Below are positions 1-32,057 of a DNA stretch of 32,057 bases, piece after piece. The DNA comes from Dimargaris cristalligena (Eukaryota). The stretch is from contig ML002429.1 in the NCBI GenBank assembly GCA_003614675.1, positions 1-32,057 of the forward strand. The letters run 5' to 3'. Positions within the stretch are counted from its first letter, which is position 1. Every line of letters starts with the position of its first letter. The translations under genes and the position numbers were made by a program. The notes beneath the pieces were generated by a model that was given only the letters and a program-made list of their open reading frames with translations, ran no database searches and was not told where the DNA came from.

Positions 1-366
1 GGGAAGGGAGTTCCCAGACAATCATATTAGTTATCACAAAGGATAGGTAATACTTAGGTAACCAATAAATTTAATGTGAAATAATAAAAGGGAAAAAGGG
101 AAAAAAAGAATGCTATTTTAAACTGTGCTTTAAACAGGGGTGCAGTCGGGCCAGGGGCAGTGTGAATGCAGGGGTACAGTCTAGTCAGGGGCAGGGATGC
201 ATCATAGTCAAGGGTATAAAAATATACTAATGAAAATGGAGGAAAAATGACTATACTTATTAGGGGCAGGGGTAGGGGCTCATTTACTTATCAGGGATGT
301 ACTTCCAATAAGTGCGAAAAATAGATAAAAAATAAAAGTAGGTCAAAATGTGGTAAATTCACCACA
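1..366 (-). mobile_element. Repeat family B, left copy (runs off window start); probable transposon end beginning TG (LTR-like)
   Basis: The reverse complement of about 221-366 aligns with 31902-32042. The shared terminus is TGTGGTGAA(T/C)TTACCACA. It contains an internal duplicated 26-mer (135-160 and 169-194, caggggtRcagtc..gYcaggggcag) and is CpG-poor. Confidence 0.7.
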
Positions 367-506
367 CCTGTACTCTGCCTTTATTAGTTAGTACCATGCT
401 TATACCTAATTCTAGTAGCCTACTTAGCTGGGTCTAAGCCCCACCTACTGTTAGAAGCCAATCCTCAGGACTCTTAACAGACTAATAGTAGTTATCCCAG
501 GCAACA
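367..506 (+). mobile_element. Truncated LTR fragment (3' end of family A LTR)
   Basis: About 377-506 aligns directly with 1347-1478 (gcctttattagttagtacc...ctaagcccc.cctactgttagaagcc.atcctcaggactctt.acagactaa...ggcaaca). It ends at the same ...GGCAACA terminus, and its 5' part is replaced by the family B end. Confidence 0.75.
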
Positions 507-896
507 GGGTTATATATATATAAATTTAAAGAGATTATTGAGGGAAATAATACCAGTATCTCTAAAGAATAAGGTTTCATAAACAGAGTTGGCTTTAAAA
601 TCAGAATGGCATACATTGTTTAATGAAAGAAAAAATGGGCTTAAATATGATGAAATGATAATTATAATCAAATGAGATTAGGAAGGCCTCCAGGTCATTT
701 GCAAGGGGTTTTGATGTCATCAGTGGCCTTGGCTATTGAGTAGGTCCATGTTGTGGTGGTTAGCCTTCCAGCCAACAACTTCAGAAGTGATGAAGGGGTC
801 ATTCATTAGGCCCAATATTAATACCTGTGCCATGAGCATGTAGTTAATTTCTGTAATGATGGTTATATAATGCAGATGGTTATTTAGTCCTTTCCC

Positions 897-1478
897 TGTT
901 AGCCCTCCTAATCTGACTTAATCCAAACCTAATAATTGCCCAACCTATTTAGGCCTTATAGGGCCCTATTAACCTTCCCATAGTCACCCCCCATACTATG
1001 GGTCATCCCTTATTATATATCCCCACTCCTTCCAACCCTAATACTTTGCACCCCAAATACTTGACTTACTGATCTAAGACTCTTCCTGTTCTCATGAGAG
1101 TCTTCCCAATACAAAGCCATCTGTTTGGATTCTTTACTTATCTATACCTTAGTCATAGTAGTATTTCCTCTGGGACCTCCCTCCAGAACCATCCCCACAT
1201 ATATAACCAGGCCCCACTGGGACTGGTTCAAGGTTAGCTTATTCTTACCCCTCAGTTTACCCTAAATAAACTCTATATATACTCACTCCCCCTGTACTGA
1301 CTAGTAAGTATGCCCACTGCATGTCCCTTACCTATACCTATGCCTAGCCTTTATTAGTTAGTACCTGTACCCCATACCTGATGCTAGTAAGCCACTTGGC
1401 CAAGTCTAAGCCCCGCCTACTGTTAGAAGCCTATCCTCAGGACTCTTGACAGACTAAGAGTGGTTAACCTAGGCAACA
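897..1478 (+). mobile_element. Solo LTR (582 bp) of an LTR retrotransposon, family A
   Basis: Begins TGTTAGCC and ends GGCAACA (TG...CA with a short terminal inverted repeat). Flanked by a 5-bp direct repeat TTCCC at 892-896 and 1479-1483. TATA-like (TATATAA, about 1200) and AATAAA (about 1265) motifs lie inside. Its 3' end is repeated at 377-506. Strand is inferred from the TATA/AATAAA order. Confidence 0.8.
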
Positions 1479-1763
1479 TTCCCCAATCTGCTCTATGTAG
1501 TAATAAATAAATAGAGGACAAAAGGTAGTTGACCTATTATCCAACACCATTATTTTTGGCACTGGAATAAATGAGAGGGGCAAATTGGATATTATCTTGT
1601 TAATAGCAAATATGGACGAGCATAGGAATAAAATAAAGGATTTCTTCATGTGCAATTTTATTGGAATTAATATTAAGGGTAAAGTAATATATAATCAGTA
1701 AGTATCTAATAACGGTGATAAAAACAAAATATAATCACCTGAGGGACCATGGTCAGACTAATT

Positions 1764-2217
1764 AACTAATATATTTATATTGGAACATTTTGAGAATACC
1801 AGTTAGGTGAAGGTGGGTTGTTTTGCCGTAGTTGCTGAGTTGTTGGCCCGCAGGCCTATTGCATTATTTTTGTGACCTTAGGTTTAATGTATTGGCTGGT
1901 CGGAACAGGGTTTTCTGGTGATGTACATGGCGTTGTTGTGGCCAGATTGGCCTCCTTGGCACCCCTGTAGCGTCTTCGGAGTGTGAAAAGTGCCTCTGGC
2001 GGTCTGGTGGCCTGATCGGATATTCAGGTTATATGACTGGCCTGATCAGTACTGGACACCCCGGTGGTACGGTATCAACAATCTGAACACCGGACTTGAA
2101 GGGCCATGCCATCTATTTGACTTTCGGATCATAGGCCACGTAATCCCGATTAAGGTGTCCTGGAGGGCATTGGGGTTCTGGTTTGGGACTACCATAGCTG
2201 GTATGTTCAAATGACAC
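1764..2217 (-). pseudogene. Possible decayed ORF of unknown identity
   Basis: One minus-strand frame reads about 150 codons (SFEHTSYGSPKPEPQCPPGHLNRDYVAYDPKVK*MAWPFKSGVQIVDTVPPGCPVLIRPVI*PEYPIRPP...). It has only three stops (TAG 2113-2115, TAA 2029-2031, TAA 1864-1866), each one C->T step from Gln. No homology recognised. Confidence 0.25.
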
Positions 2218-2267
2218 GGTTGTTTTCTAGAGTTGGGGTGTTGGTAGTGGGAAGTAGACAGTAGGGA

Positions 2268-2295
2268 GTGGGGTGTGGGGTGTGGGGTGTGGGGT
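2268..2295 (+). repeat. (GTGGGGT)4 tandem repeat, G-quadruplex-capable
   Basis: Four GGGG tracts separated by TGT loops, read directly. Confidence 0.85.
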
Positions 2296-3711
2296 CTGAA
2301 ATATCACAGTGGGGGAGGGAGGTTAAATATGTGCATGTGTGAGGGGAATCGAATACAAATGTGTTGAGGTTTACAGAGTAATTTCACAGTTGCTATTTGG
2401 TGCGAATGATGATTAAAATTAACATGCGACAGCGCGGGGTATTTATAGGCAGATAGAAATATTGGATGGGTTCTGGTGACTGCACTAGCCCATTACCGGG
2501 CAATAATGTGTTGGGAAAAGACATAGTCTTTACCACTTACAACCTTTGAACAGTGCAAGGCGAGGCCATCCATCCACAGTGAATGGGCCCATTGTTGTAA
2601 AATGGAAATGATAAATACTATACAAAGCGAATAAGAAAACCTAAGGCCTCCAAACATTGTAGCCTGGCCTATCTTTAGCGGGGACTGTAGTATCACCCTA
2701 AGTGGTCCAATTGTTTGCCGCTTTTATTAATGCTTTTTTTTATTAAGTTATGAAGAGAAGGACTGGCCCCGATGAATTACCATGGAGTACATTCACCTTC
2801 GCCCTTCTTCAGCTCGGATGGCATGCTTAGTCCTAAATGAAAGTGAAAGTATCTCATGCTTCTAAAATCATGACTCCAAGAATTCGTACTCGCACAAAGA
2901 TTAATGGGAAGGTGGTTTAACGTGTAAACCATGAAGAGTAACCATTGATATTGAAGACCCGATATTGTACCATTTGTTCCTAAACCAGGCTGCTGGACAC
3001 TGTGTAAATCTCGCAAGACAATAGTAATAGTATGGCCATTTTATAATAAGTTATATTATGCGGTATTTTCTAGACTGACTGGTTTACATTCGAAAGCTTT
3101 GGAGCTAATGACAAAGTAAACGAACATCGTAGTCCTTGTTCAGATGGCATAGCACCATTCATACCATGTGGTATTGTGAGCGTACGAATTTAGGTCATCA
3201 TCTATTTATTCGCACTCCCCTTTAACACCATGTAGTACTTCGTTAATAATGACAGGTCGCCCTTGGTAGCTGGTTGTTTATGGCTATATCCCAAATCCGC
3301 ACACTACAGTTGGGTATTTTTGCTGTTCATTCTACTACCAATTATCGCCTACCATACCCATATCTTTTTGTGGATACAACACCTATACTAATGCATCCAC
3401 TTTTCCGGCTCCACCGCAAGTACACTGTCGATATCCCACTCCACCTCTCGCTTCCATCAGTTTTTTCTATAGTCCCCTCATTAATTTGCAACAAGTCGCT
3501 AACCACAGCTATTTAGGCTTAATGGTAGATTAGTGAATTGCTGAGTGCTGAAATAGAGCACATCCTCAAACGGCCGAGTAGATGGCCGGTATCCCTTGGT
3601 TTCGACTCAAGACCATGGTGGTAAATAATGCGCCAGTTAGCCAATCCTTCTTAACTCTGGTTTTTACAGGTATTAATCGAGCTATACCGTAGCTGCTATA
3701 GGCCGATTTAT

Positions 3712-4881
3712 CTAGAGAAGTCGATAGTTACAATCATCCTGCTTCGGCCGTACTTTGGGGTTGGCCAAAAGTTTAACTATGGCTTGGAGGTAACGCCGGG
3801 AACTTTTGGATACCTCGAAGAAATAGCCCGGGGCCTTGGGGCTCTCAATGCGTGTGAGGAAGTCGTAAATAATCTTTTGGGGAGGATGATAGATTATTAT
3901 ATACAAAACCCAGGTAGATTGGTAAACATGTGATAGTGATGCCATACTCCATGACTGGGTTTAAGTATAGGATGATTTGGCAACATACGTCCAGAAAATA
4001 CATCAAAATACACCGACTGCAATGTACCCATATAAATCAAAAATGGTGTTCCAATAATTTAAAGACAGTTGGTTTACCTGGGGGTCGCATTGTTCAGTTC
4101 GCCGGCGGTGGAGGTACACGAAGTCAAAAGCCATTTGGGGGTTGGCTACATGGGCGTCAATCTAGGTGAAGGGTTACCAAATCCAAGTGCCATGTTCCAA
4201 GCTCAAACAGTGTCAATTACATACATGCAAGTCCTTTTCCTGTGTATAATAGCCCGACGGGCTGTATACAAAATGAATTCCGAGGCTACCCTTACACCCT
4301 TAAGTAGTGCTTATACCCGTATAAGTCCCTTCGCCTCAGCTCAGACATACCTTAACAATACATTCCTCGGGAACCACAGTAGACCGACCGTAGATACAAA
4401 TCACCCGGGGCATCGTTACTCCCAATCGGGCCGTATTGGTTTGGACCGTTTCAAACAATGACCGAGTCTCAAAACGCGGGAAGGGTTCCAGGGGAACTAA
4501 TCCATCCAGGACCACCTGGAGCAGATGCACATCGGCCGAGAAATCCATCAGCCATTCCGCCCGATTTTTCAAGAGCACTATGGCGAACTCGTGCTGTATC
4601 GGGGAAGGAGGTATCGGGGAATCATCCGAAGATACTCCGGCGCCCGGGGTCGAGTTGGTTGACGATAGAGAGAGGCCCCGTTTAGCGTCAATGAAGGCTT
4701 TGATAAACCGCTGGGTGGCGGCTAGCCGGGTGGTGCTGGGCATGGTGGTGGGGGCGGCTAGGAGGGGTTCGCTCATTTCGGTGTGAACGTCAATACAAAA
4801 AACGATACGCTCGGTTAGACCCGCGGCGGAGCCGGGCGGTAGTGGGGAATTGGACGACATGGCCGAAGTGGGCGAGAGCAT
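3712..4881 (-). CDS. BABAM1: BRISC and BRCA1-A complex member 1 (MERIT40/NBA1)-like vWA protein, 3 exons
   Basis: Exons 4881-4351, 4161-4078 and 3873-3712, GT-AG and frame-consistent. Motifs ERIVFCID, HEFAIVLL...AEWLMDFS, PRVICIYGRS, FDFVYLH and the C-terminal KLLANPKVRPKQ..CNYRLL match MERIT40 (KLLAHPLQRPCQ..ASYSLL, recalled). The start could also be the ATG at 4860. Confidence 0.88.
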
Positions 4882-22098: not shown

Positions 22099-22560
22099 TT
22101 ACTGTTAGGTTGCAATACCAGCCACGGTGGCCAGAGGTAATTCGAGGATGATCCGTTATCGCGTAACGAGCCATTGGAATAGCAATGCAGCGGAGGTATC
22201 GTTCTTGTATAAGCTAGGTTGGAGTGCGGGTAGATATGGGCTAATATTCGAATAGCGTATATTGGGGTTTTAACATAGACGATAAAGCACACCATGCATA
22301 ATAGTGCCATTAATGCCGGGTATGAAAGGGTAAATACGGTTCAGCAGTTGTTACTGGATTGAAAAAATAGGAACAGCCTGAAACATTGGTGCGCAAAGGT
22401 CCAGGGAAACACAGGATAATAGATCAATCGCCAATAAGGTACATTCACAACGAGCCCATTACTGAAGTAATCTAACCACGGCCTGGGGCACTTTTGTTAG
22501 TAGGAAATATAACCTTTCTTAAGGTGGTGAGTCGATGTTCACAGCTAAGGTGTATTTTAA
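22099..22560 (-). pseudogene. Decayed ORF relic, possibly the post-RT region of a non-LTR (L1/Tx1-like) retrotransposon; repeat family C copy 1
   Basis: One frame reads ...ERLYFLLTKVPQAVVRLLQ*WARCEC...VSLDLCAPMFQAVPIFSIQ*QLLNRIY...LELPLATVAGI. It has seven stops, all TAA (22519, 22459, 22351, 22270, 22156, 22105, 22099). 22113-22305 is repeated at 31391-31525. The LINE identity rests on remembered motif resemblance only. Confidence 0.5.
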
Positions 22561-22595: not shown

Positions 22596-22677
22596 CGTCA
22601 CCTGCAGGATTCGAACCTGCGCTCCCAAAGGGAAATGGCTTAGCAGGCCACCGCGTTAACCACTCCGCCAAAGTGAC
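22596..22677 (-). tRNA. tRNA-Ser (anticodon GCU), intronless, 82 nt
   Basis: Minus strand GTCACTTTGGCGGAGTGGTTAACGCGGTGGCCTGCTAAGCCATTTCCCTTTGGGAGCGCAGGTTCGAATCCTGCAGGTGACG. The acceptor stem is GTCACTT/AGGTGAC and the anticodon loop is CT-GCT-AA. It has a long variable arm, a GGTTCGAATCC B-box, discriminator G and an oligo-T terminator just downstream. Confidence 0.96.
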
Positions 22678-25357
22678 TGGTTGAAAATATTTTGCTGTTG
22701 TGCTACATATATCATATATTTGTAGGTATTGTGTGTTTGAGACGTAATCTCTGTGGTTCCCAACAGCTAGTAGGCCGTAATAGTCACTCACCGATTTTTT
22801 TAGGAACCCCTGTGAGATTCTATTATCATATATATTTTTAGGGGGGATTAATCGATAAGGAGGCATGCACCCTTAAGAGCTGAGCTATCCAATATTTATA
22901 TGTATTATATTATTGTATTCGTGTATTTGCATATTCTAAACTACATTTATAATTATGTATGGTGTTTGATGTTCTAAAAGTAGCCACTGGGGTTATTATT
23001 ATTACTGTTGTAAATGTTTTTGCGATTTCTAAAATGTAATAAGTTTGTTTCAATTATCGCTATATCCCACCGTATTATAGTATGGCGAGTGTTTGTATAT
23101 TTTCTACTTTTTTTTTTTTGATCGTTGAGTAGTATTTCTGGGTAAGGGGCCCTTCATTATTGACAAGCCTCCTTTTCTACTGTATTCTACTAGGACCCTG
23201 GCTGATGAATATACCTCCTCATTTAGCCCAGTAAATTTAGTTTTTGTAAATGCATGCAGGCTTTTTTATTTGACGCTATAGTCTATGCTATCCAATATAT
23301 GTGCATTGGCTGCTCGTACTGTCCAATTGGCGACCAACTCTATACGGTCATAAACATGGGAGGGGGAGGGAGTACTTGCCAGAATCAGTATATATTTTTC
23401 AGGTGTTTTATGCATTAGTACCGATTTATGTTTTTATATTGTTGTTAATGGCATGACTAGAGAGGCTCGGGAGGCAGCTTCAGTAGATTGCATTTTGAAG
23501 GTATTCCAGGGTAACATTCCCGCCTAATTGGCGGTATTTGTATCGAGGATCGTCGTGGCCAGGAATTCCACAATCAGTCCCATTTTTCGATACCGATCCA
23601 GGCCGCTGGCATGGGGGGGGGGTGGTTCAATATAGTGCAGGACTGTGAATTTGGCCTGACTGGGGTAATGGCTATATGAGATAGTAAGCGGAATATTTAC
23701 TGCTATGCTATGGGTGTCCAGCTGTGAACCACCTTCCCCCCTGTTTACCATACATATGGGGTATAAGTCAGGGCCAGGTGGTACCATTACGAAGGACTAC
23801 TACTTCTACTTCCTCGGGATTGCCTTGCACTAGTCGTTGCCCTGCCCCTTTTCCCTTTGGCTTGAATCCTGCAAGTAGGCTTCCATTGGCTCGTACGATC
23901 GATGCTGGATATCAGCATTATCACATGCAAATTTTTAATTTGGACAGTGACGTGTGGGGATGGCCAGGGCAACAGAATATATAATACCCATGTTTCAACC
24001 ATCGGAGAAGGAAATCGACAGTTGGGTGGGTGGGGGGACCACTGGGAAGGTGGTGAAAAAGTGGGCTGACCTGGCTGGAATTCATTTCCCGGATGACCCT
24101 CTACACTATACCGCACCACACTGGTCAACGCGATGGGTGGGACCACACACAACAACAGTCCGGGTTGGTGTGATTGACCTGCAAGGGAAGATGCGTAGTA
24201 TCGACCAAGTAGGAGTAATAATATAGTATTCCCCTCCCCGTTACGTGTGGCACAGGGACAGTCACCAGTGAGGAGAGAGAGAGACAGGGCTGCGTTTCTA
24301 TGGGTGGGTAGAATATATACGTAGGTACGGAGTAACTCGGGTGGTTAAGTGGGCCCATTGGTTTTTCGGTTCAGGGAGAATACTATGGAGTGCTTCTTGA
24401 TTGAGCGGGGAAGTCTTCATTCAACTAACCACAGGCAATTCCTCCCCTCCTATTATAATAATATGGCAACGGCCTGTAATATAGTAGTATAACACAACAG
24501 GCCAAACGCCCAAATCGAAAAAACCTCCCATCTATTGGTCAGCCGCCATCGTATGATTCCAGCCATTTGATGTCGCGGCCTACCTACCTTGCGTCAGCTA
24601 GTCCACGACATCAAAGAGCACAAGCCAATCCAATTCCACCGTTTTTGCCATGGCTGACTATATGCTAATGCAGGATTCTTTTGGTTAGAATTCTTTGATT
24701 ACGGGTGCAATAAATAGCCGGGCCTTTCCTTCCCCCCTCACTTACTTCTCTGTTCTTCTTCTGTCCCTACACATACTATCTTCACCCCCTTCATTACTTC
24801 ATTGTTGTTGTTGGCTATTTCCTCCTGGTCAATTTTAGCGTGTTCGTCACCCATGCGCGTTTCACCACCGTCTCTTACGCCCCCTCTTCGGTCCTGCTGT
24901 GTGTGGCCATAAAACTGAATCAGCCCACTTTCCTTGTACACCCTATTATATCTCTCTTCCCGTATCAGCCCACTCTTGCCTACCATTTGGCTCTTCACTG
25001 AATGTATTTACTGTAACCCCACTTTATTATTCCCTCCGTTTATCCGTTTACTCTCTCACCCTCTATTCATCAATCACTTCCTCCACCAGGGCTGCGAACA
25101 AAACATTCTCCAATTAACATTAATATTAATATTCTTCTTGAACACCCACCGCACCTCCCGGGTTGATTAATAATTATCTACATTTTTGTTGACGTTTTTT
25201 CTTGAGTTAATTCTCATAAATTTTCCGACGTCCGTGTACTTGTTGTGCCTGCTTAATTGTATATAATTTAATCACTCTCATAGACCTTTCCGAGCCTTCT
25301 TTTTTTTTTCTTGCTACCCCACTATCGCCTATATCATCGTTCTGCGCCCCACACACC

Positions 25358-26248
25358 ATGGACGTGTTTCTGGAATACGTCGACTACTATGCCGCCGAGA
25401 GTGCCTACCGCTATCTGGCGGCCCACACCGCAGTGCCCTACCTGGAACCCACCAACCTCATTCGGCAGTTCATTACCCTAACCCTCGCCGTTGACTTGGG
25501 GGTTAATCTCCTTTATTTCACCGTGTCGCCCCTCTCCTACTACCTGGTGTTCGACCGCACTCTAGAACAGCACCCCAAGTTCCTCAAAAACCAAATTCGC
25601 CAGGAAATCATCGCTGCTACCAAGGCCTTCTTGCCCATGACCATACTGACCGTCCCCTGGTTTATGATGGAGGTCCACGGTTATTCGCGCCTCTACGAAA
25701 ATGTCTCCCTTTACGGCTGGCCCTATTTCTTCCTGACCATTCTCCTCTTCCTCCTCTTCACCGACTTTGGCGTCTACTGGATTCACCGGCTGTTGCACCA
25801 CCGCCTCATTTACGCCAAGGTCCATAAGCCCCACCACAAGTGGATCATTCCCACCCCCTTCGCCGCCTTCGCCTTTAATTACCTCGACGGTTACCTGCAG
25901 TCCGTGCCCTACCATTTAGCCGTTTTTGTGTTCCCCATCCACAAGTATCTCTATCTCGGCCTATTCGTCTTTGTTCAGCTGTGGACCGTTATGATCCACG
26001 ACGGCGAATACATGTCCACCAACCCCATCATCAACGGCTCAGCTCACCACACCGTCCACCACATCTACTTTAACTACAACTACGGCCAATATTTCACCCT
26101 TTGGGATCGCGTGTTTGGCTCCCACCGGTACCCGCCTCCCGAAGTTACCGACCGGGAATTGCGTAACTCCAAGTCTATCCAGAAGGACCAAGCTAAAGAT
26201 GTCGAGGATATGCTACCCACTCTGGAGCTCAAGTCCAAAGTCGCGTAA
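25358..26248 (+). CDS. ERG3: Sterol C5(6)-desaturase (lathosterol oxidase), 296 aa, intronless CDS
   Basis: His boxes HRLLH, HKPHHKW and HTVHH...NYNYGQY. It also has HPKFLKNQIRQEI and PTPFAAFAF..LDGYLQS, with strong C-ending codon bias. Confidence 0.96.
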   Translation: MDVFLEYVDYYAAESAYRYLAAHTAVPYLEPTNLIRQFITLTLAVDLGVNLLYFTVSPLSYYLVFDRTLEQHPKFLKNQIRQEIIAATKAFLPMTILTVPWFMMEVHGYSRLYENVSLYGWPYFFLTILLFLLFTDFGVYWIHRLLHHRLIYAKVHKPHHKWIIPTPFAAFAFNYLDGYLQSVPYHLAVFVFPIHKYLYLGLFVFVQLWTVMIHDGEYMSTNPIINGSAHHTVHHIYFNYNYGQYFTLWDRVFGSHRYPPPEVTDRELRNSKSIQKDQAKDVEDMLPTLELKSKVA

Positions 26249-27259: not shown

Positions 27260-30158
27260 ATGGACTTCGATCGCCCGACCCACCCAGGCTCGTCAACAGC
27301 CACCCGGGATGCCCCCGATTCCATTCCGCCCAGTTCCTTCCTAACCCCCTTTAAAGCCACTCTGCTCGTGCTCGTTGACATTTACTGTAACCAGCCCCTT
27401 CTCCATGCCAGTTCCCGCGTCGTCACCCCACTCTTACCTTTCCTCATCCGGGCCATTCATACGCCATTCGCCCTACCCCGTTTAACCCTTGGCGCCATTG
27501 GCCAAACCCTCGCAACCATAAAGGTCGACACCGAGGCTAATCGTGGCCATGCTGCATTCAGCGATGACGAAGCCATGATGCCCTCCGGGGACAGTGGCTG
27601 GTCGGTAAAGGATCTTCTCTTCGATCGTTTAAGCGAATTGCGGAACAACGACGACTTTGAAACTTTCATTGTTGAAATGGAGGACATTATCCAGTTTCCC
27701 GGGGTCGAGTTGGAGTCCATGGAAGACCGAATGTACCTGCAAGATTCGAGTTTATTGGGCGTCTTTGTTCGACGCTGTTACTTGGCTTATAAACAACTCG
27801 AATTCCATGAAGCGGCGCTGTTCTTTGGGCAGTTCCAACGGTACGTCGCTATCGCTGCTGACGACGACGATAACGGCAGCGGAACTTGGGACGGAAATAC
27901 TACTGGTTCGAACCCCAAGGGGCTATCGGAGGAAATCACTTCAGCCCTCGAAGCCGAGACTTTCATTGACTCCTGCATTGAACGTCTGGCCATCCCAACG
28001 TTAGACGCCCTACCGGATCAGACCCTGGTTTTATTACAACGTTATCGAACAATGTTTCCCGATCTGGCCAAGGTCCATTATGCCAAGTAAGTCCTACCGA
28101 CTAAGCGATAGTGGTAGCCGCCTGGTCAGCCCCCTGGCCTGTTAGTATATAGGTCCAACCATGCCACATCGACCTAATGTTTATGTTTTTCACCAGACCC
28201 TACCATTCTCACCTTTCGCCCTATTTAATCCTGCCCCCCCCCCCCCCCCAATTGACCGGAATCTATCGGTAATAAGCTACCTGTACCATAAGCAGGCGGG
28301 TAATTACAATGAAGCGCTTCAGTTCCTACACCGGTATTTCGACTATACTGGGGCCATTGGCGAGCGCCGCCTGCACCAGTACGCCCTGCTCAGTCTAGCC
28401 AGTCTCGAGGCCCAATTCCACCACTATGACCAAGCCGCTCGCCTCATCCAGGAGGCTGTTGAGGTAGCCCGGGAGAACAAAGACCAGGCTTGCCTCAGTT
28501 ATGCCTCCAACTGGTTCTACCGGCTCATTGAGCTCCAGCCGGACCGGTTCCAAGGTCAGCGGGCCAATGAGCAGCAGTTGTTAGAATCATTAACCGGCAA
28601 AACCCGTCTACTCAATCTGCTGCACCTACAGTGCCTAAGTGAGCTCAATAAGGCTAAACGGGCCCTCGTGGCTGGCGAGAGTCCCGCCACCGTATTTTTG
28701 GCCCTCTTGCGCTGCGAACTACTACAACGCCAACACAGACTGCCCCATATTACCGGAACTTGCTATGCCCTCTGGGCGTCGGTCTGGCGCTCCTATGGCT
28801 TCTCGCACCTCGCGGTTCTCTATGCCCAATTACAGGTAGCCTATCACATTAGGGATGTGGCCAGCGGGGATGATGCCCTGTTAGGGTACTGCCAAATAGC
28901 CCAGCATTTAGGGGACGCGGACCAATGGGCGGCCCTTGCGGTGTTAAACGACCATATAGATACTATTCGGGACCCCACTTTAGATCGTGCTCGCTCGACA
29001 TGGTCCAATTGCTACCGCGAGCAAATGCTTCAGTCCCATGCCCTTCGTGGGGACTGGGATTCCGTGGGACGACTACTACCACTACTCCTGTTACAACCCG
29101 GCCAGACCAACGGGGACAGTACCACCGCCCAACAACCGCCTACCGGAGGAGACCCGGGCATTTCGAAGACCGCCCGCCTTGTCCAGGCTTGGCTGGATAT
29201 CCGGCGCGAGGACTATAGTGCGACCTTCCATCACCTCCAATCCCTCCTCCGGGTAACAGCGGAGCCGCCCAACCAGCGATCCCCGCCCCCGGTAGGATTA
29301 ACATTATCCCCCTTAGAAAAAGTGGGGGCGCTCCGACTCATGGGGGAGGGCCTGCTCGAAACCGGGGTCCCCGATGCCGCTTTGGCATACATTACCCAGG
29401 CCCGAGAGTTGAGTTCGACGGCCCAGTTTCGGGCCGACTATCTCGCTTGCTCTGTGCTCTTTATCCGGGCGTTGGTGGCTTTAAATTGGTCATCGTCGGC
29501 CTTTGATATGTGCAAGGCCTTGGTTAGCGAGGTAAAGTATCCTTTATATATTTATATAGCGGATTGAGGCTCAACTATGGGTAGTTTGCCTCGACCAGTA
29601 GAGAGGGTGGGGAAGGACTGGCGTTGGACTAATATCGATCCTGAACCTCGTGGATCAGCCTTTTCCAATACTTTAGAATGATTTACCATCAGCCCTTAAA
29701 GCATCCTGGAAAATACTAACACACTGCGCGCCCATTGTATAACCCGTTTCTCTGGTGGGTAATGTAAAACCTTTTCCACTGCTCGACCCTTGCCATAGAT
29801 TATGACCCACGGAACTCCATTTGTCCAGGGTACTTTTCTACGGGTATATAGCGAATGTCTACCCGAGGCAGCGGGTTCGGCAATAAAGTTGAGCCTCCTT
29901 CGTCAGGCCCACACCAGTAAGTGACCACACCTATATTTATTTATATTATTTGGTTTTTCAACTAGCCAACAGATTAATAAGGGAATGTATATTAAGACAG
30001 TGGTCGAATTAAAATGGGCTTCTAAGCACCTTCCTCCAATTATTATATTAATGAAATTATTGGAATGCTATATATTTTGTCCAACAGTTTTTGACCGCCT
30101 GGGGTGCACCAAGGAAAAGGCATCCGTCGGCCTATCAATACAAAACCTCGGCGACTAG
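27260..30158 (+). CDS. APC5: Anaphase-promoting complex subunit 5, 4 exons, about 756 aa
   Basis: Exons 27260-28086, 28277-29531, 29799-29916 and 30088-30158. Motifs are FLTPFKATLLVL, SLLGVFVRRCYLAYKQLEF and ALQFLHRYFDY...QYALLSLASLEAQFHH...IQEAVEVARENKDQACL, followed by a TPR-like C-terminus. Confidence 0.92.
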
Positions 30159-30584
30159 TGCGGTTTATTTAATACTATGTAATAAACTTCAATCACTAAT
30201 GTTAATAGTAATTTTGGGCAACTCAAAAAAATCCATTTAGTCAACCACTTGAATAGGGAAATTTCATAATATAAAACCACCTCGTGTTTTGTGAGCTATT
30301 TACCTAGATTTTATTGGTCTTTGGAACCATCGGGGGCATTTGATCAGGCAATATTGTGGTGATATTACATTGGGGGTTTGGTAGTATTGACAGTATACTG
30401 GGATTATGTGCAGAGGGTGTGGTCTGGAATGGATTGGGATGCTAGTTGACTAAATCCATGGCAAAATGGTCTATACTATAATAATGCATGAGTGGTATTC
30501 GACTTTCCATGCTTAATATTAAATGAGACATGGGAAATCGCTTGCGGAAGGACCAACCTTCCTCCAACTGTTACTACCTCTTGA

Positions 30585-30640
30585 TTTCCACATTTCCATA
30601 TTTCCACACATTTCCATATATCCACATATTCCCAATTCCA
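30585..30640. repeat. Degenerate TTTCCAYA(YA) tandem repeat
   Basis: tttccaca-tttccata-tttccacaca-tttccata-tatccacata-ttccca read directly. Confidence 0.6.
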
Positions 30641-31254
30641 CCTTCATCATTATCGTCCTACTATCCTATCAATTAGTAGGCAACTTCCAACATGCTTGGA
30701 AAAAACATGGCTAGCCTATTCACCTGCTTAGCCAATTTCATTTATTGGTTTATACCAAGACATCAAGAACATAAATTGATCCTTTATAACTACGCATGAT
30801 ACCTAATGGAATTAGATTTGGATTTGGCTATTCAGATTACCTGGAAAATCAGTCTCATCCAGTGAGCTCGAGAACTCCTGCCATGTGTCAAGTCCCTGGA
30901 TTTGGGTCTGAAACCTTGTGCTGAACACTAACCTAAGCTGGGCAGAATATGCCGAGTAGCAATAATATGGCGGTAATTGGTGTAAAATACAATTTAACTT
31001 GCTACAGCAAACACAATTTGGGTGTGTCATGATAACACACCACACAAACCGATGGATTCAGGTACGTCAAAACTTATAGTAATATTTTGCTTAATATGAT
31101 TGTACCTATTCTTCTACTTATATGTATACTTATCCTTATACCACCAGTTGCCCTAAACTAAAGTAGCTCGAAAACATTCATTAATATTTGTAATAATTTG
31201 GTATTGGTTTGTCAAGAGATTACTCAAAATTAAATAGCACTATAAATAAATGAT

Positions 31255-31525
31255 TACAACCAGGGGAAAGCCCTGCTTCTGTAGTATATATGTTCAAAAC
31301 CTTGGGCTTCTAGCCACTTTTAATGCCGAGTTATGGGTGTTTAAAAGTGACTGGTCCATTGAACCCCTTTTTCACACTGTTCAAGAAAATCAATATCAGC
31401 AATAGTGGTCAGAGGTGGGTATGTATAGTTGTATAAGCTAAGTTGGAGTATAGGTGGGTATGGGCTGATATTTGAATAATATATATTCATAGTTGATTTA
31501 GATGATAAAGTACATCATGCATAAT
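31255..31525 (-). pseudogene. Second, more mutated copy of the family C relic
   Basis: 31391-31416 matches 22113-22138 and about 31429-31525 matches about 22205-22305, with an internal deletion. The frame continues PLTTIADIDFLEQCEKGVQWTSHF*TPITRH*KWLEAQGFEHIYYRSRAFPW, again with TAA stops. Confidence 0.55.
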
Positions 31526-31901
31526 ATCCTATATCATCTCCTTTTCTGTTGGACCAATTATGTTAGTTTATAAGGGTACACTACATCCTTTAATACTAAC
31601 TGCTTAAAATGTTCCCAACTAACTATGATATTCAATAAAACTAACCAGCTAAAAATCATTAGAAAATGGACACCTTATAACTGGGGTCACATTTATAATT
31701 ATCTTACTCACCTGACTTTATCTATATTCTATTATCAACTATTCAGTCATTATATTGGCCCTTTTAATCTGACCTTATCCAGCCATAGTGATCATCCATC
31801 CTGACTAGGCTATTGTTATGATGGGCTGGTATTAAGGCCAGGTACCACAGGATAGACCAGACTTCAAAGGACAGGAATAAGTTTATTAGGATAAATATTA
31901 G

Positions 31902-32057
31902 TGTGGTGAACTTACCACATTTTTTACCTACTTTTAATTTTTATCTATTTTTCGCACTTATCGGAAGTACGCCCCTGACGAGTGAATGGGCCCCTGCCCC
32001 TGATGAGTATGGTCATTTTTCCTCCATTTTCATTATTATATTGTTTTTTCTATTATT
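31902..32057 (+). mobile_element. Repeat family B, right copy (runs off window end), inverted relative to 1-366
   Basis: TGTGGTGAACTTACCACATTTTTTACCTACTTTT...CCTCCATTTTCATTA aligns with the reverse complement of 221-366, with one 6-bp indel. It retains four CpGs, of which the left copy keeps only one. Confidence 0.7.

What the first reader, a model, noticed from the sequence alone, without database searches (positions are those of the whole stretch)
1..1500. RIP-like repeat-directed C->T hypermutation (CpA as well as CpG) in an apparently early-diverging fungus
Seen: I count only three CpGs in 1-1500, whereas the genes are CpG-rich. In LTR pair A (377-506 vs 1347-1478) the differences include cctgat/cctaat, cttgg/cttag, cttgac/cttaac, gtgg/gtag and cccagg/cctagg (TpG or CpA -> TpA), plus ccccg/cccca. 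In pair B (31902-32042 vs the reverse complement of 221-366) the left copy shows gtga>gtaa, cctga>cctaa, atga>ataa, atgg>atag, tcgg>ttgg, acgc>acat and acga>ataa. Known: CpA->TpA is the hallmark of RIP in Pezizomycotina (RID/DIM-2 dependent), and RIP-like TpCpG bias occurs in some basidiomycetes. Simple 5mCpG decay gives TG/CA but not TA. Inference: a homology-targeted cytosine mutagenesis or non-CpG methylation system acts on repeats here. If the organism is outside Dikarya, this may be an undescribed genome-defence system.
Basis: partly seen in the sequence, partly recalled or inferred. Interest (0 to 1): 0.78.

Follow-up and report, generated by a model that had tools for sequence, protein, structure and literature searches.

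The report
C-to-T decay of LTR repeats
Retrotransposon remnants at the ends of this contig from an early-diverging (Dimargaritales) fungus have lost nearly all CpG sites and show extra C-to-T change at CpA, which looks like methylation-driven or weak RIP-like decay but cannot be settled from one contig.

Summary
Bases 1-1500 carry 3 CpGs (O/E 0.05; about 47 expected). The three repeat pairs in the window differ mainly by transitions (41 ts: 12 tv).

The organism lies outside Dikarya. The ERG3 ORF is 77-83% identical to Dimargaritales proteins.

The repeats are LTR-derived and very abundant: 1822-3335 contig pieces per run.

There is a CpA signal of modest strength:
- YpA sites differ 3 times more often than YpC+YpT sites (p=0.016).
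- 3 of 8 lost CpGs became TpA.
- Against the family majority, the window copies show 22 C>T-type changes, 7 T>C-type and 10 transversions.
- Sites outside the pairs give OR 2.1, p=0.31.

This is not classical hypermutation. Repeat GC (0.42) equals AT-rich control DNA (0.40). Many copies are 95% or more alike. CpG loss also covers single-copy DNA between and beside the repeats, while a short isolated copy keeps its CpGs.

My best reading is deamination decay of a methylated repeat cluster, mostly at CpG with a CpA component. A weak RIP-like process remains possible. DNMT genes and 5mC could not be tested, because no genome is held.

The parts
1..366 (+). Family B repeat, cut off by the contig end. 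It is a high-copy, older copy with C>T decay and 2 CpGs.
   Evidence: Word depth is 1.5e5-1e6, against 124-1389 in single-copy bins. It aligns to the reverse complement of 31901-32045 at 85%. All 11 transitions in pair B carry T/A in this copy. At 261, 285, 289 and 297 the family majority has C/G.
377..506 (+). Truncated copy of the 3' end of LTR family A.
   Evidence: 83% identical to 1347-1478. Depth falls to single-copy level after about 510.
511..896 (.). Single-copy spacer between the repeats, with no CpG.
   Evidence: Depth is at single-copy level in bins 561-880, and independent contigs match the window exactly over 314-840, 316-1227, 316-931 and 446-992. For 511-880: 0 CpG, CpA O/E 1.47, TpG O/E 1.21, TpA O/E 0.91.
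892..896 (.). Left copy of the 5-bp target-site duplication TTCCC.
   Evidence: Read directly from the sequence.
897..1478 (+). Solo LTR of family A (TG...CA, 582 bp). High-copy, 1 CpG.
   Evidence: It starts TGTTAG and ends GGCAACA, flanked by TTCCC on both sides. Depth rises within bin 881-960. In 40-44 contigs per run (X4, X5) the sequence runs on unlike the window after 1478. For 881-1500: CpG O/E 0.04, TpA O/E 1.51.
1479..1483 (.). Right copy of the target-site duplication TTCCC.
   Evidence: Read directly from the sequence.
1501..3000 (.). Single-copy flank with partial CpG depletion.
   Evidence: CpG O/E is 0.49, 0.56 and 0.52 in three 500-bp blocks, then 0.88 at 3001-3500. Depth is single-copy for 1521-2400, and all four runs have a contig matching 1441-2400 or 1453-2400 with 0 differences.
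22205..22303 (+). Family C fragment in CpG-normal DNA. It keeps its CpGs.
   Evidence: 77% identical to 31429-31526. Its 4 CpGs stand opposite TA (2) and TG (2) in the other copy. The surrounding 1-kb block has CpG O/E 0.90.
30401..32057 (.). CpG-poor zone at the right end of the contig.
   Evidence: CpG O/E 0.30, TpA/ApT 0.91, substrate index 1.28.
31429..31526 (+). Decayed copy of family C.
   Evidence: It carries T/A at 13 of the 17 transition differences in the pair.
31901..32057 (-). Family B repeat, cut off by the contig end. It is a younger copy close to the family majority and keeps 4 CpGs.
   Evidence: CpGs at 31953, 31962, 31970 and 31979. It carries C/G at all 11 transition differences with the left copy.

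Best explanation
The contig ends in clusters of LTR-retrotransposon remnants from very abundant families in a Dimargaritales (Kickxellomycotina, Zoopagomycota) genome.

I infer that these clusters and about 0.4-1.5 kb of adjoining single-copy DNA are, or were, cytosine-methylated. Deamination of 5-methylcytosine has then turned C into T over time. The effect is almost complete at CpG across the whole domain. Inside the repeats there is an added, weaker component at CpA. That component would come from some non-CpG methylation, or from a low-efficiency RIP-type activity of a DNMT1-family enzyme. Older copies are decayed. Young copies and a short isolated fragment are not.

Shown here: the CpG loss and its extent, the C>T direction of change, the rate order CpG > CpA > CpC > CpT, the copy number, and the taxon.

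Inferred, not shown: methylation itself, the enzyme, and whether homology plays any role.
For: CpG loss follows a domain rather than homology:
- High-copy parts: O/E 0.06. Single-copy spacer 511-880: 0 CpG. Flank 1501-3000: O/E about 0.5. AT-rich control blocks: 0.78.
- GpC is normal.
- In the single-copy CpG-poor DNA the expected products pile up: (CpA+TpG)/(ApC+GpT) is 1.32 and TpA/ApT is 0.84.
- The isolated 99-bp copy C in CpG-normal DNA keeps its 4 CpGs.

Direction of change:
- Against the family majority the window copies show 22 C>T-type, 7 T>C-type and 10 transversion differences. The per-site C>T: T>C ratio is 4.2, p=0.0004.
- On the strict-majority subset the counts are 20, 5 and 10.
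- In pair B all 11 transitions carry T/A in the older left copy.

Context:
- Fraction of sites changed in the pairs: CpG 11 of 15, CpA 19 of 46, CpC 7 of 41, CpT 4 of 49.
- CpA vs CpC+CpT: OR 5.1, p=0.0003. The direction-agnostic version gives OR 3.0, p=0.016.
- Eight lost CpGs stand opposite TA (3), TG (3) and CA (2).
- The high-copy parts have TpA/ApT 1.48 and substrate index 0.94, against 0.94 and 1.14 in control blocks.

Slow decay rather than a burst:
- Repeat GC is 0.42 against 0.40 in controls.
- Of 2673 laid pieces in run X1, 283 are 99% or more alike and 596 are 95-99% alike.

Literature (passages read):
- 5mC on repeats with CG methylation is reported in other early-diverging fungi: Rhizophagus, and Phycomyces and Rhizopus.
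- Kickxellales carry CDCA7F, a zf-4CXXC_R1 protein described in a paper on the coevolution of CDCA7-HELLS with DNA methyltransferases.
Against: - No methylation data and no DNMT gene could be examined, because no genome is held.
- CpG-only maintenance methylation cannot make TpA, so this model needs an unproven non-CpG component.
- TpA enrichment with low CpA+TpG could be the LTRs' own composition.
- The right-end CpG-poor zone does not show it (0.91 / 1.28).
- The CpA excess is not significant at sites outside the pairs (OR 2.1, p=0.31).
- Only 40 of 381 variant rows from the read-laying were visible.
Confidence: 0.5

Rival explanations
1. A true RIP-like process. This would be a duplication-triggered, enzyme-driven C>T mutagenesis acting in a sexual or pre-meiotic stage. 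Its preference would be CpG > CpA, as reported for Aspergillus nidulans MATE elements. It would be of low efficiency and would leak into adjacent single-copy DNA.
For: - Transitions dominate (41:12) and the CpA<->TpA 'dominance' is 0.86.
- The high-copy parts meet both classical index thresholds (TpA/ApT 1.48, at least 0.89 required; substrate index 0.94, at most 1.03 allowed). Single-copy flanks (0.84 / 1.32) and controls (0.94 / 1.14) do not (thresholds from the RIPCAL paper).
- CG>TA double changes occur at 3 of 8 lost CpGs.
- The short isolated copy C is spared, as a length threshold would predict.
- The RIPCAL paper reports a dual CpG and CpA preference in A. nidulans MATE (passage).
- Composition-based RIP calls exist for Entomophthorales (passages).
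Against: - The families persist in thousands of pieces, many 95% or more alike.
- There is no drop in GC.
- The right B copy sits in a repeat cluster yet is unmutated.
- CpG loss in single-copy DNA is as complete as in the repeats.
- A kingdom-wide k-mer screen found repeat-directed signatures only in Ascomycota (abstract and passages).
- No RID-type gene could be looked for.
- The sample is small.
Confidence: 0.25
2. Only CpG methylation decay plus ordinary AT-biased neutral mutation. On this view the apparent CpA excess is sampling noise, a genome-wide context bias, or the LTRs' own composition.
For: - The independent site set gives OR 2.1, p=0.31.
- The substrate index over 1-1500 is 1.12 and CpA/TpG O/E is about 0.96-1.0.
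- Several coding 1-kb blocks also have TpA/ApT above 1, so the indices discriminate poorly here. The RIPCAL authors themselves call simple indices unreliable.
- The 11:0 asymmetry in pair B is explained by the age difference between the copies.
Against: - The YpA excess reaches p=0.016 without any assumption about direction, and p=0.0003-0.001 with C taken as ancestral.
- The window-vs-family set gives OR 3.1, p=0.024, or OR 2.7, p=0.047 on the strict subset.
- Three of 8 lost CpGs went on to TA (P about 0.04 if the second step had a 10% chance).
- The per-site C>T : T>C ratio of 4-5 is, from recalled knowledge, higher than the usual 2-3.
Confidence: 0.2
3. An artefact of assembly or amplification, for example chimeric or collapsed repeat contigs, or deamination errors.
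For: The repeats lie at the contig ends, where assemblies break.
Against: Contigs from four runs, covering three samples and two studies, reproduce window stretches 314-840, 316-1227, 316-931, 446-992, 902-1228 and 1441-2400 with 0 differences. The differences analysed are between paralogous copies that each occur in these assemblies.
Confidence: 0.03

Closest known systems
RIP-type mutation of Aspergillus nidulans MATE transposons (CpG>TpG and CpA>TpA, in that order)
   Same: The same two dinucleotides are affected in the same order. Here the fraction of sites changed is CpG 11 of 15 and CpA 19 of 46, against CpC 7 of 41 and CpT 4 of 49. The A. nidulans pattern is as reported in the RIPCAL paper (passage).
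   Different: That is an ascomycete, in a lineage with RID; this is a Zoopagomycota fungus. Here there is no GC drop, very many similar copies survive, and dependence on duplication is not shown.
Canonical RIP of Neurospora crassa and other Pezizomycotina (RID- and DIM-2-dependent, CpA-dominant)
   Same: C:G>T:A transitions in repeats with a CpA>TpA component. The high-copy parts pass the 0.89 / 1.03 index thresholds.
   Different: - CpG, not CpA, is the most affected site.
- The indices are far from those of RIP-affected repeats: 1.48 / 0.94 here, against about 1.7-2.2 / 0.3-0.7 in Stagonospora nodorum families.
- High-copy families that are 95% or more alike persist.
- The enzyme and the timing could not be tested.
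CpG-directed hypermutation of Microbotryum violaceum copia-like elements (basidiomycete 'RIP-like')
   Same: There is a strong CpG>TpG preference in retrotransposon copies outside the Pezizomycotina (passage).
   Different: Here there is an added CpA component, and no 5'-T preference: the 5' neighbour is T at 9 of 39 changed sites and at 25 of 106 unchanged sites.
5mC on transposons with CpG decay in other early-diverging fungi (Rhizophagus irregularis; Phycomyces)
   Same: Cytosine modification is associated with repeats outside Dikarya, and the DNA here shows domain-wide CpG loss with TpG/CpA products in the flanks. High CG methylation on most TE loci and a DNMT1-related enzyme are reported for R. 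irregularis (passages). 5mC marks repeats in Phycomyces (passage).
   Different: Methylation has not been measured here. The papers read do not report CpA>TpA or CG>TA changes.
Composition-based RIP calls in Entomophthorales (Zoophthora radicans 24.2% of the genome)
   Same: It is the same phylum (Zoopagomycota) and the same suggestion that RIP may act outside Dikarya, with stated caveats (passages).
   Different: That work used index scans of whole genomes. Here there are alignments of copies with direction of change, but only about 1.1 kb of repeats. The order (Dimargaritales) is different.

Membership tests
RIP (repeat-induced point mutation) | Differences among repeat copies are overwhelmingly C:G>T:A transitions. 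| tested here: met
   41 transitions to 12 transversions in the three pairs. 22 C>T-type, 7 T>C-type and 10 transversions against the family majority. The ts:tv ratio of about 3.3 across 274 variant places in X1 (211 ts, 63 tv) is mild compared with classical RIP (the comparison is recalled).
RIP (repeat-induced point mutation) | A preferred CpN dinucleotide (CpA, or CpG+CpA). | tested here: met
   CpG 11 of 15 and CpA 19 of 46, against CpC 7 of 41 and CpT 4 of 49. OR 3.0-5.1, p 0.016-0.0003. The independent site set is not significant (p=0.31).
RIP (repeat-induced point mutation) | Index shift in repeats relative to non-repeats (TpA/ApT at least 0.89; (CpA+TpG)/(ApC+GpT) at most 1.03). | tested here: inconclusive
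   Met in the high-copy parts (1.48 / 0.94, against control 0.94 / 1.14). Not met over 1-1500 (1.21 / 1.12) or in the right-end zone (0.91 / 1.28).
RIP (repeat-induced point mutation) | Dependence on duplication or homology, with unique DNA affected only by leakage. | tested here: inconclusive
   The single-copy spacer 511-880 has 0 CpG, and the flank stays depleted to about 3000. The isolated 99-bp copy is spared. TpA enrichment is seen only in the repeats. These results are compatible with both readings.
RIP (repeat-induced point mutation) | Efficient removal of near-identical repeats from the genome. | tested here: not met
   1822-3335 pieces were laid per run. In X1, 283 are 99% or more alike and 596 are 95-99% alike, out of 2673.
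RIP (repeat-induced point mutation) | A RID/Masc1-type (or DIM-2) cytosine methyltransferase homologue in the genome, and pre-meiotic timing. | not testable with these tools
   No genome is held. No DNMT domain was found in the 20 window ORFs scanned.
5mC-driven CpG decay of methylated transposons | CpG O/E is strongly reduced in repeats and neighbouring DNA while GpC is normal. | tested here: met
   CpG O/E is 0.06 in the repeats, 0.46 in the flanks and 0.78-0.80 in controls. GpC O/E is 0.80-1.28.
5mC-driven CpG decay of methylated transposons | TpG/CpA products accumulate. | tested here: inconclusive
   Yes in the single-copy CpG-poor DNA (index 1.32). No in the high-copy repeats (0.94), where TpA is raised instead.
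5mC-driven CpG decay of methylated transposons | 5mC is present on the region, and DNMT1 or DNMT5 is encoded. | not testable with these tools
   All runs found are assembled contigs. No genome is held.
AID/APOBEC-type deaminase editing | A 5'-TpC preference at mutated cytosines. | tested here: not met
   The 5' neighbour at 39 changed sites is C 13, G 10, T 9, A 7. At 106 unchanged sites it is C 31, A 31, T 25, G 19.
Plant-type CHG methylation decay | A preference for CAG/CTG among non-CpG sites. | tested here: not met
   CpA sites that changed: CAC 6, CAG 5, CAT 4, CAA 4.

The most novel reading that the evidence does not exclude
Dimargaritales fungi possess a repeat-directed cytosine-to-thymine mutagenesis with CpG > CpA preference. 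This would be a RIP analogue outside Dikarya. It would run on a DNMT1-family or other enzyme unrelated to the ascomycete RID lineage, and it would be weak enough to let LTR families reach thousands of copies.
Probability: 0.2. Interest if true: 0.8.

Novelty: new member of a known kind. Interest (0 to 1): 0.42.

Why it matters
Whether RIP-type genome defence exists outside Dikarya is an open and contested question. A 2025 kingdom-wide screen found repeat-directed signatures only in Ascomycota. A 2024 study suggested RIP in Entomophthorales from composition alone. My full-text search found no paper that mentions both Kickxellomycotina and 5mC.

This contig shows that a Dimargaritales genome has very abundant LTR families with clear C>T decay. 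The decay is near-complete at CpG and shows a suggestive CpA component. That makes these families a good substrate for a decisive, alignment-based, genome-wide test, and for a first look at 5mC in this lineage.

If only CpG decay is confirmed, the result is still evidence of past or present cytosine methylation of transposons in a lineage for which my search found no 5mC report.

Tried and rejected
- Whole genome: none is held. Genome-wide copy collection and a DNMT/RID/APOBEC search were therefore impossible.
- Other copies as sequence: two exact-pattern scans of metagenome contigs with conserved cores of families A and B gave 0 hits.
- A protein search with the 77-aa ORF inside family B (57-287, minus strand) found 3 candidates and none scoring E <= 1. 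Repeat copies could not be recovered as predicted proteins.
- Read laying gave tables only, showing 40 of 381 variant rows. The context of the other 341 places is unknown.
- Transposon proteins: none of the 20 window ORFs scanned against Pfam (10, 10) matched a transposon or DNMT family. The short ORFs listed in 1-4100 and 29600-32057 showed nothing obvious by eye and, apart from 4063-4461, were not scanned.
- SINE idea: the only tRNA or Rfam hit is tRNA-Ser at 22596-22677, not in the repeats.
- Purine/pyrimidine-recoded self-comparison, to find copies hidden by transitions, returned only the same three pairs above shuffle controls. A candidate at 881-959 vs 31740-31816 scored 77 against a shuffle maximum of 69.5 and was not counted.
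- The APOBEC-type (5'-T) and CHG-type readings were rejected on context counts.
- The 11:0 asymmetry of pair B was rejected as evidence for locus-specific mutagenesis. The right copy matches the family majority and is simply younger.
- Bewick et al. 2019, the survey of fungal DNMTs, is not held. I saw it only as cited in a review. Its tables may show which DNMTs Dimargaritales carry.
- Supplements were not consulted.
Full report
WHAT IS THERE

The window is a whole 32,057-bp contig of a eukaryote. It carries ordinary genes: APC5, an ERG3-type sterol desaturase, a delta-COP/adaptor mu-type subunit, a RasGAP-domain protein and a tRNA-Ser.

The ERG3 ORF (25220-26248) is 83% and 82% identical to two Tieghemiomyces parasiticus proteins. 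It is 78% identical to Dimargaris verticillata and 77% to Dispira parvispora. The best hits outside Dimargaritales were 43-62% identical. The organism is therefore a member of Dimargaritales (Kickxellomycotina, Zoopagomycota), outside Dikarya. This rests on one marker gene. No whole genome is held.

Bases 1-1500 contain 3 CpGs, at 147, 315 and 1414, giving O/E 0.05. Two thousand shuffles gave 60 +/- 6 and never fewer than 40. At the O/E of AT-rich control blocks (0.78), 47 are expected; Poisson P(<=3) = 9e-17. GpC is normal. CpG-poor DNA is found only at the two contig ends. Other AT-rich intergenic stretches keep O/E 0.68-0.90.

Self-BLAST finds three repeat pairs and nothing else of note:
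- A: 377-506 vs 1347-1478
- B: 218-367 vs the reverse complement of 31901-32045
- C: 22205-22303 vs 31429-31526

ANATOMY

Contigs of four public runs of the same organism were laid on 1-2400 at 80% likeness or more.
- Stretches 1-510 and about 881-1500 belong to very abundant families. There are 1822-3335 laid pieces per run. Word depth is 1e4-1e6, against 124-1389 in the single-copy stretches 561-880 and 1521-2400.
- 897-1478 begins TG and ends CA, and is flanked by TTCCC on both sides (892-896 and 1479-1483). In 40-44 contigs per run (X4, X5) the sequence diverges right after 1478. It is a solo LTR with a 5-bp target-site duplication.
- 377-506 is a separate truncated copy of the same LTR's 3' end.
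- Family B lies at both contig ends, facing inward, and is cut off by the assembly.
- Independent contigs reproduce window stretches 314-840, 316-1227, 316-931, 446-992, 902-1228 and 1441-2400 without a single difference. The copies are real.

SUBSTITUTION SPECTRUM

The three pairs differ by 41 transitions and 12 transversions. Recoding to purine/pyrimidine raises identity from 77-85% to 93-95%.

Direction of change comes from the laid copies. Of the 40 best-supported variant rows (out of 381), the window copy has:
- T/A where the family has C/G at 22 places;
- C/G where the family has T/A at 7 places (position 125, a minority variant, was not counted);
- a transversion at 10 places.

The per-site C>T: T>C ratio is 4.2, p=0.0004. 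Keeping only rows where the other letter holds half or more of the depth in at least 3 of 4 runs gives 20, 5 and 10.

In pair B all 11 transitions have T/A in the left copy. The right copy agrees with the family majority at 261, 285, 289 and 297 and keeps 4 CpGs. It is a young copy and the left one is an old copy. The asymmetry shows the direction of change; it does not show locus-specific targeting.

CONTEXT

Taking the C-bearing allele as ancestral, the fraction of sites changed in the pairs is:

| Context | Changed | Total sites |
|---|---|---|
| CpG | 11 | 15 |
| CpA | 19 | 46 |
| CpC | 7 | 41 |
| CpT | 4 | 49 |

- CpA vs CpC+CpT gives OR 5.1, p=0.0003. Without one TG/CA doublet that points to an ancestral CpG, it is OR 4.5, p=0.001.
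- With no assumption about direction, transitions hit 16 of 108 YpA sites against 8 of 146 YpC+YpT sites: OR 3.0, p=0.016.
- Eight CpGs present in one copy stand opposite TA (3), TG (3) and CA (2) in the other. TA cannot arise from CpG-only deamination. If the second step had a 10% chance, P(at least 3 of 8) is 0.04.
- In the window-vs-family set, three TG/CA doublets were moved to the CpG class. CpA>TpA then accounts for 9 of 120 available CpA sites, against 9 of 353 for CpC+CpT: OR 3.1, p=0.024. On the strict subset it is 8 of 120, p=0.047.
- That set overlaps the pairs. Restricted to sites outside the pair regions, the effect keeps its direction but is not significant: 5 changed CpA sites and 7 changed CpC+CpT sites, against 73 and 212 unchanged sites, OR 2.1, p=0.31.
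- There is no 5'-T preference and no CAG preference. APOBEC-type and CHG-type readings are not supported.

COMPOSITION

| Region | GC | CpG O/E | TpA/ApT | (CpA+TpG)/(ApC+GpT) |
|---|---|---|---|---|
| High-copy parts (1-510 + 881-1500) | 0.42 | 0.06 | 1.48 | 0.94 |
| Single-copy CpG-poor DNA (511-880 + 1501-3000) | 0.41 | 0.46 | 0.84 | 1.32 |
| AT-rich control blocks | 0.40 | 0.78 | 0.94 | 1.14 |
| Right-end zone (30401-32057) | 0.36 | 0.30 | 0.91 | 1.28 |

The high-copy parts pass both published RIP thresholds (0.89 and 1.03). The single-copy DNA that has lost CpG shows the plain CpG-decay pattern, with products accumulating. The repeats themselves show raised TpA and lowered CpA+TpG.

This contrast is the best hint that the CpA component is specific to repeats, but the LTRs' own composition is a confounder. 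Over 1-1500 as a whole the indices are 1.21 and 1.12. Several coding blocks also have TpA/ApT above 1. The authors of RIPCAL call simple indices unreliable.

WHY THIS IS NOT CLASSICAL HYPERMUTATION

- Repeat GC equals that of the controls.
- The indices are far from those of RIP-affected families in Stagonospora nodorum, which run about 1.7-2.2 and 0.3-0.7.
- The families persist in thousands of pieces, many 95% or more alike.
- The ts:tv ratio over all listed variant places is about 3.3 (211 to 63 in X1).
- CpG loss covers a single-copy spacer completely (0 CpG in 511-880) and fades over about 1.5 kb of flank (O/E about 0.5 up to 3000, then 0.88).
- A 99-bp family-C fragment in CpG-normal DNA, about 300 bp from tRNA-Ser, keeps all its CpGs.

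This is the geography of a modified chromatin domain. Leaky, length-dependent RIP would look similar.

MOST LIKELY MECHANISM (inference; confidence about 0.5)

The LTR clusters and their near flanks are, or were, 5mC-methylated. Deamination removes CpG across the whole domain. A non-CpG component, mainly at CpA, acts inside the repeats.

Rivals:
- A weak, truly duplication-triggered RIP-like process with CpG > CpA preference, as reported for A. nidulans MATE: about 0.25.
- CpG decay plus ordinary AT-biased mutation, with the CpA excess due to chance or composition: about 0.2.
- Artefact: about 0.03.

LITERATURE (passages read unless stated otherwise)

- Badet and Croll 2025 found repeat-directed k-mer signatures only in Ascomycota (abstract and passages).
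- The 2024 eLife Entomophthora paper reports index-based RIP in Zoophthora radicans (24.2%) and low levels in relatives. It says RIP may act outside Dikarya, with caveats, and notes DNMTs whose domain architecture resembles RID.
- Rhizophagus has high CG methylation on transposons and a DNMT1-related enzyme. The same paper states that no RIP signature was detected in Gigaspora or Mucoromycotina.
- A 2026 review says early-diverging fungi have little 5mC, yet in Phycomyces 5mC marks repeats.
- Kickxellales carry CDCA7F, described in a paper on the coevolution of CDCA7-HELLS with DNA methyltransferases.
- No paper in the library mentions both Kickxellomycotina and 5mC.
- None of the 13 papers that mention both Dimargaris and methylation (11 listed) looked, by title or abstract start, to be about DNA methylation in Dimargaris. 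I checked passages in one of them.
- Bewick et al. 2019 is not held. Supplements were not consulted.

VERDICT

CpG loss is strong and tied to repeat clusters, and it runs in the C>T direction. A suggestive 3-fold CpA component accompanies it, in LTR remnants of a Dimargaritales fungus. This is a new lineage for a known kind of repeat decay, and a good case for a genome-wide test. It is not yet evidence of a new genome-defence system.

Noticed in passing
window 892-1483: A 582-bp solo LTR (897-1478, TG...CA) with an intact 5-bp target-site duplication, TTCCC. It belongs to a family present in hundreds to thousands of pieces in the organism's assemblies.
   Followed up: partly
window 1-366 and 31901-32057: Both contig ends stop inside inward-facing copies of the same repeat family B. 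The contig is bounded by assembly breaks in this family. In other copies the family-B end is followed by a shared internal sequence (loose-end consensus in run X5 at 348, 13 contigs, agreement 0.8). B is therefore probably the terminal part of a longer element.
   Followed up: no
window 22205-22303 and 22596-22677: A family-C repeat fragment lies about 300 bp from a tRNA-Ser(GCT) gene on the minus strand. This is reminiscent of retrotransposons that insert near Pol III genes. This copy keeps its CpGs.
   Followed up: no
window 881-959 vs 31740-31816: A borderline, transition-rich similarity (53 of 80 columns identical, 16 transitions, 7 transversions). Its score of 77 compares with a maximum of 69.5 in 200 shuffles. 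It may be another, more decayed copy of the LTR-A 5' end at the right end of the contig. It runs 16 bp past the LTR start that the target-site duplication implies.
   Followed up: partly
window, all 1-kb blocks: TpA is not avoided anywhere in this contig: O/E is about 0.9-1.3 even in coding blocks. This makes TpA/ApT-based RIP indices poorly discriminating in this genome.
   Followed up: partly
window 2264-2295 and 30584-30641: Short tandem arrays, (GGGTGTG)x4.6 and an 8/18-bp ATTTCCAC-type array, lie in the CpG-poor flanks.
   Followed up: no
protein P0006: An ERG3-like protein annotated in the fly Pseudolycoriella hygida scores among the top hits to this fungal ERG3 (43% identity, 531 aa). 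It may reflect contamination or a transfer in that insect assembly.
   Followed up: no
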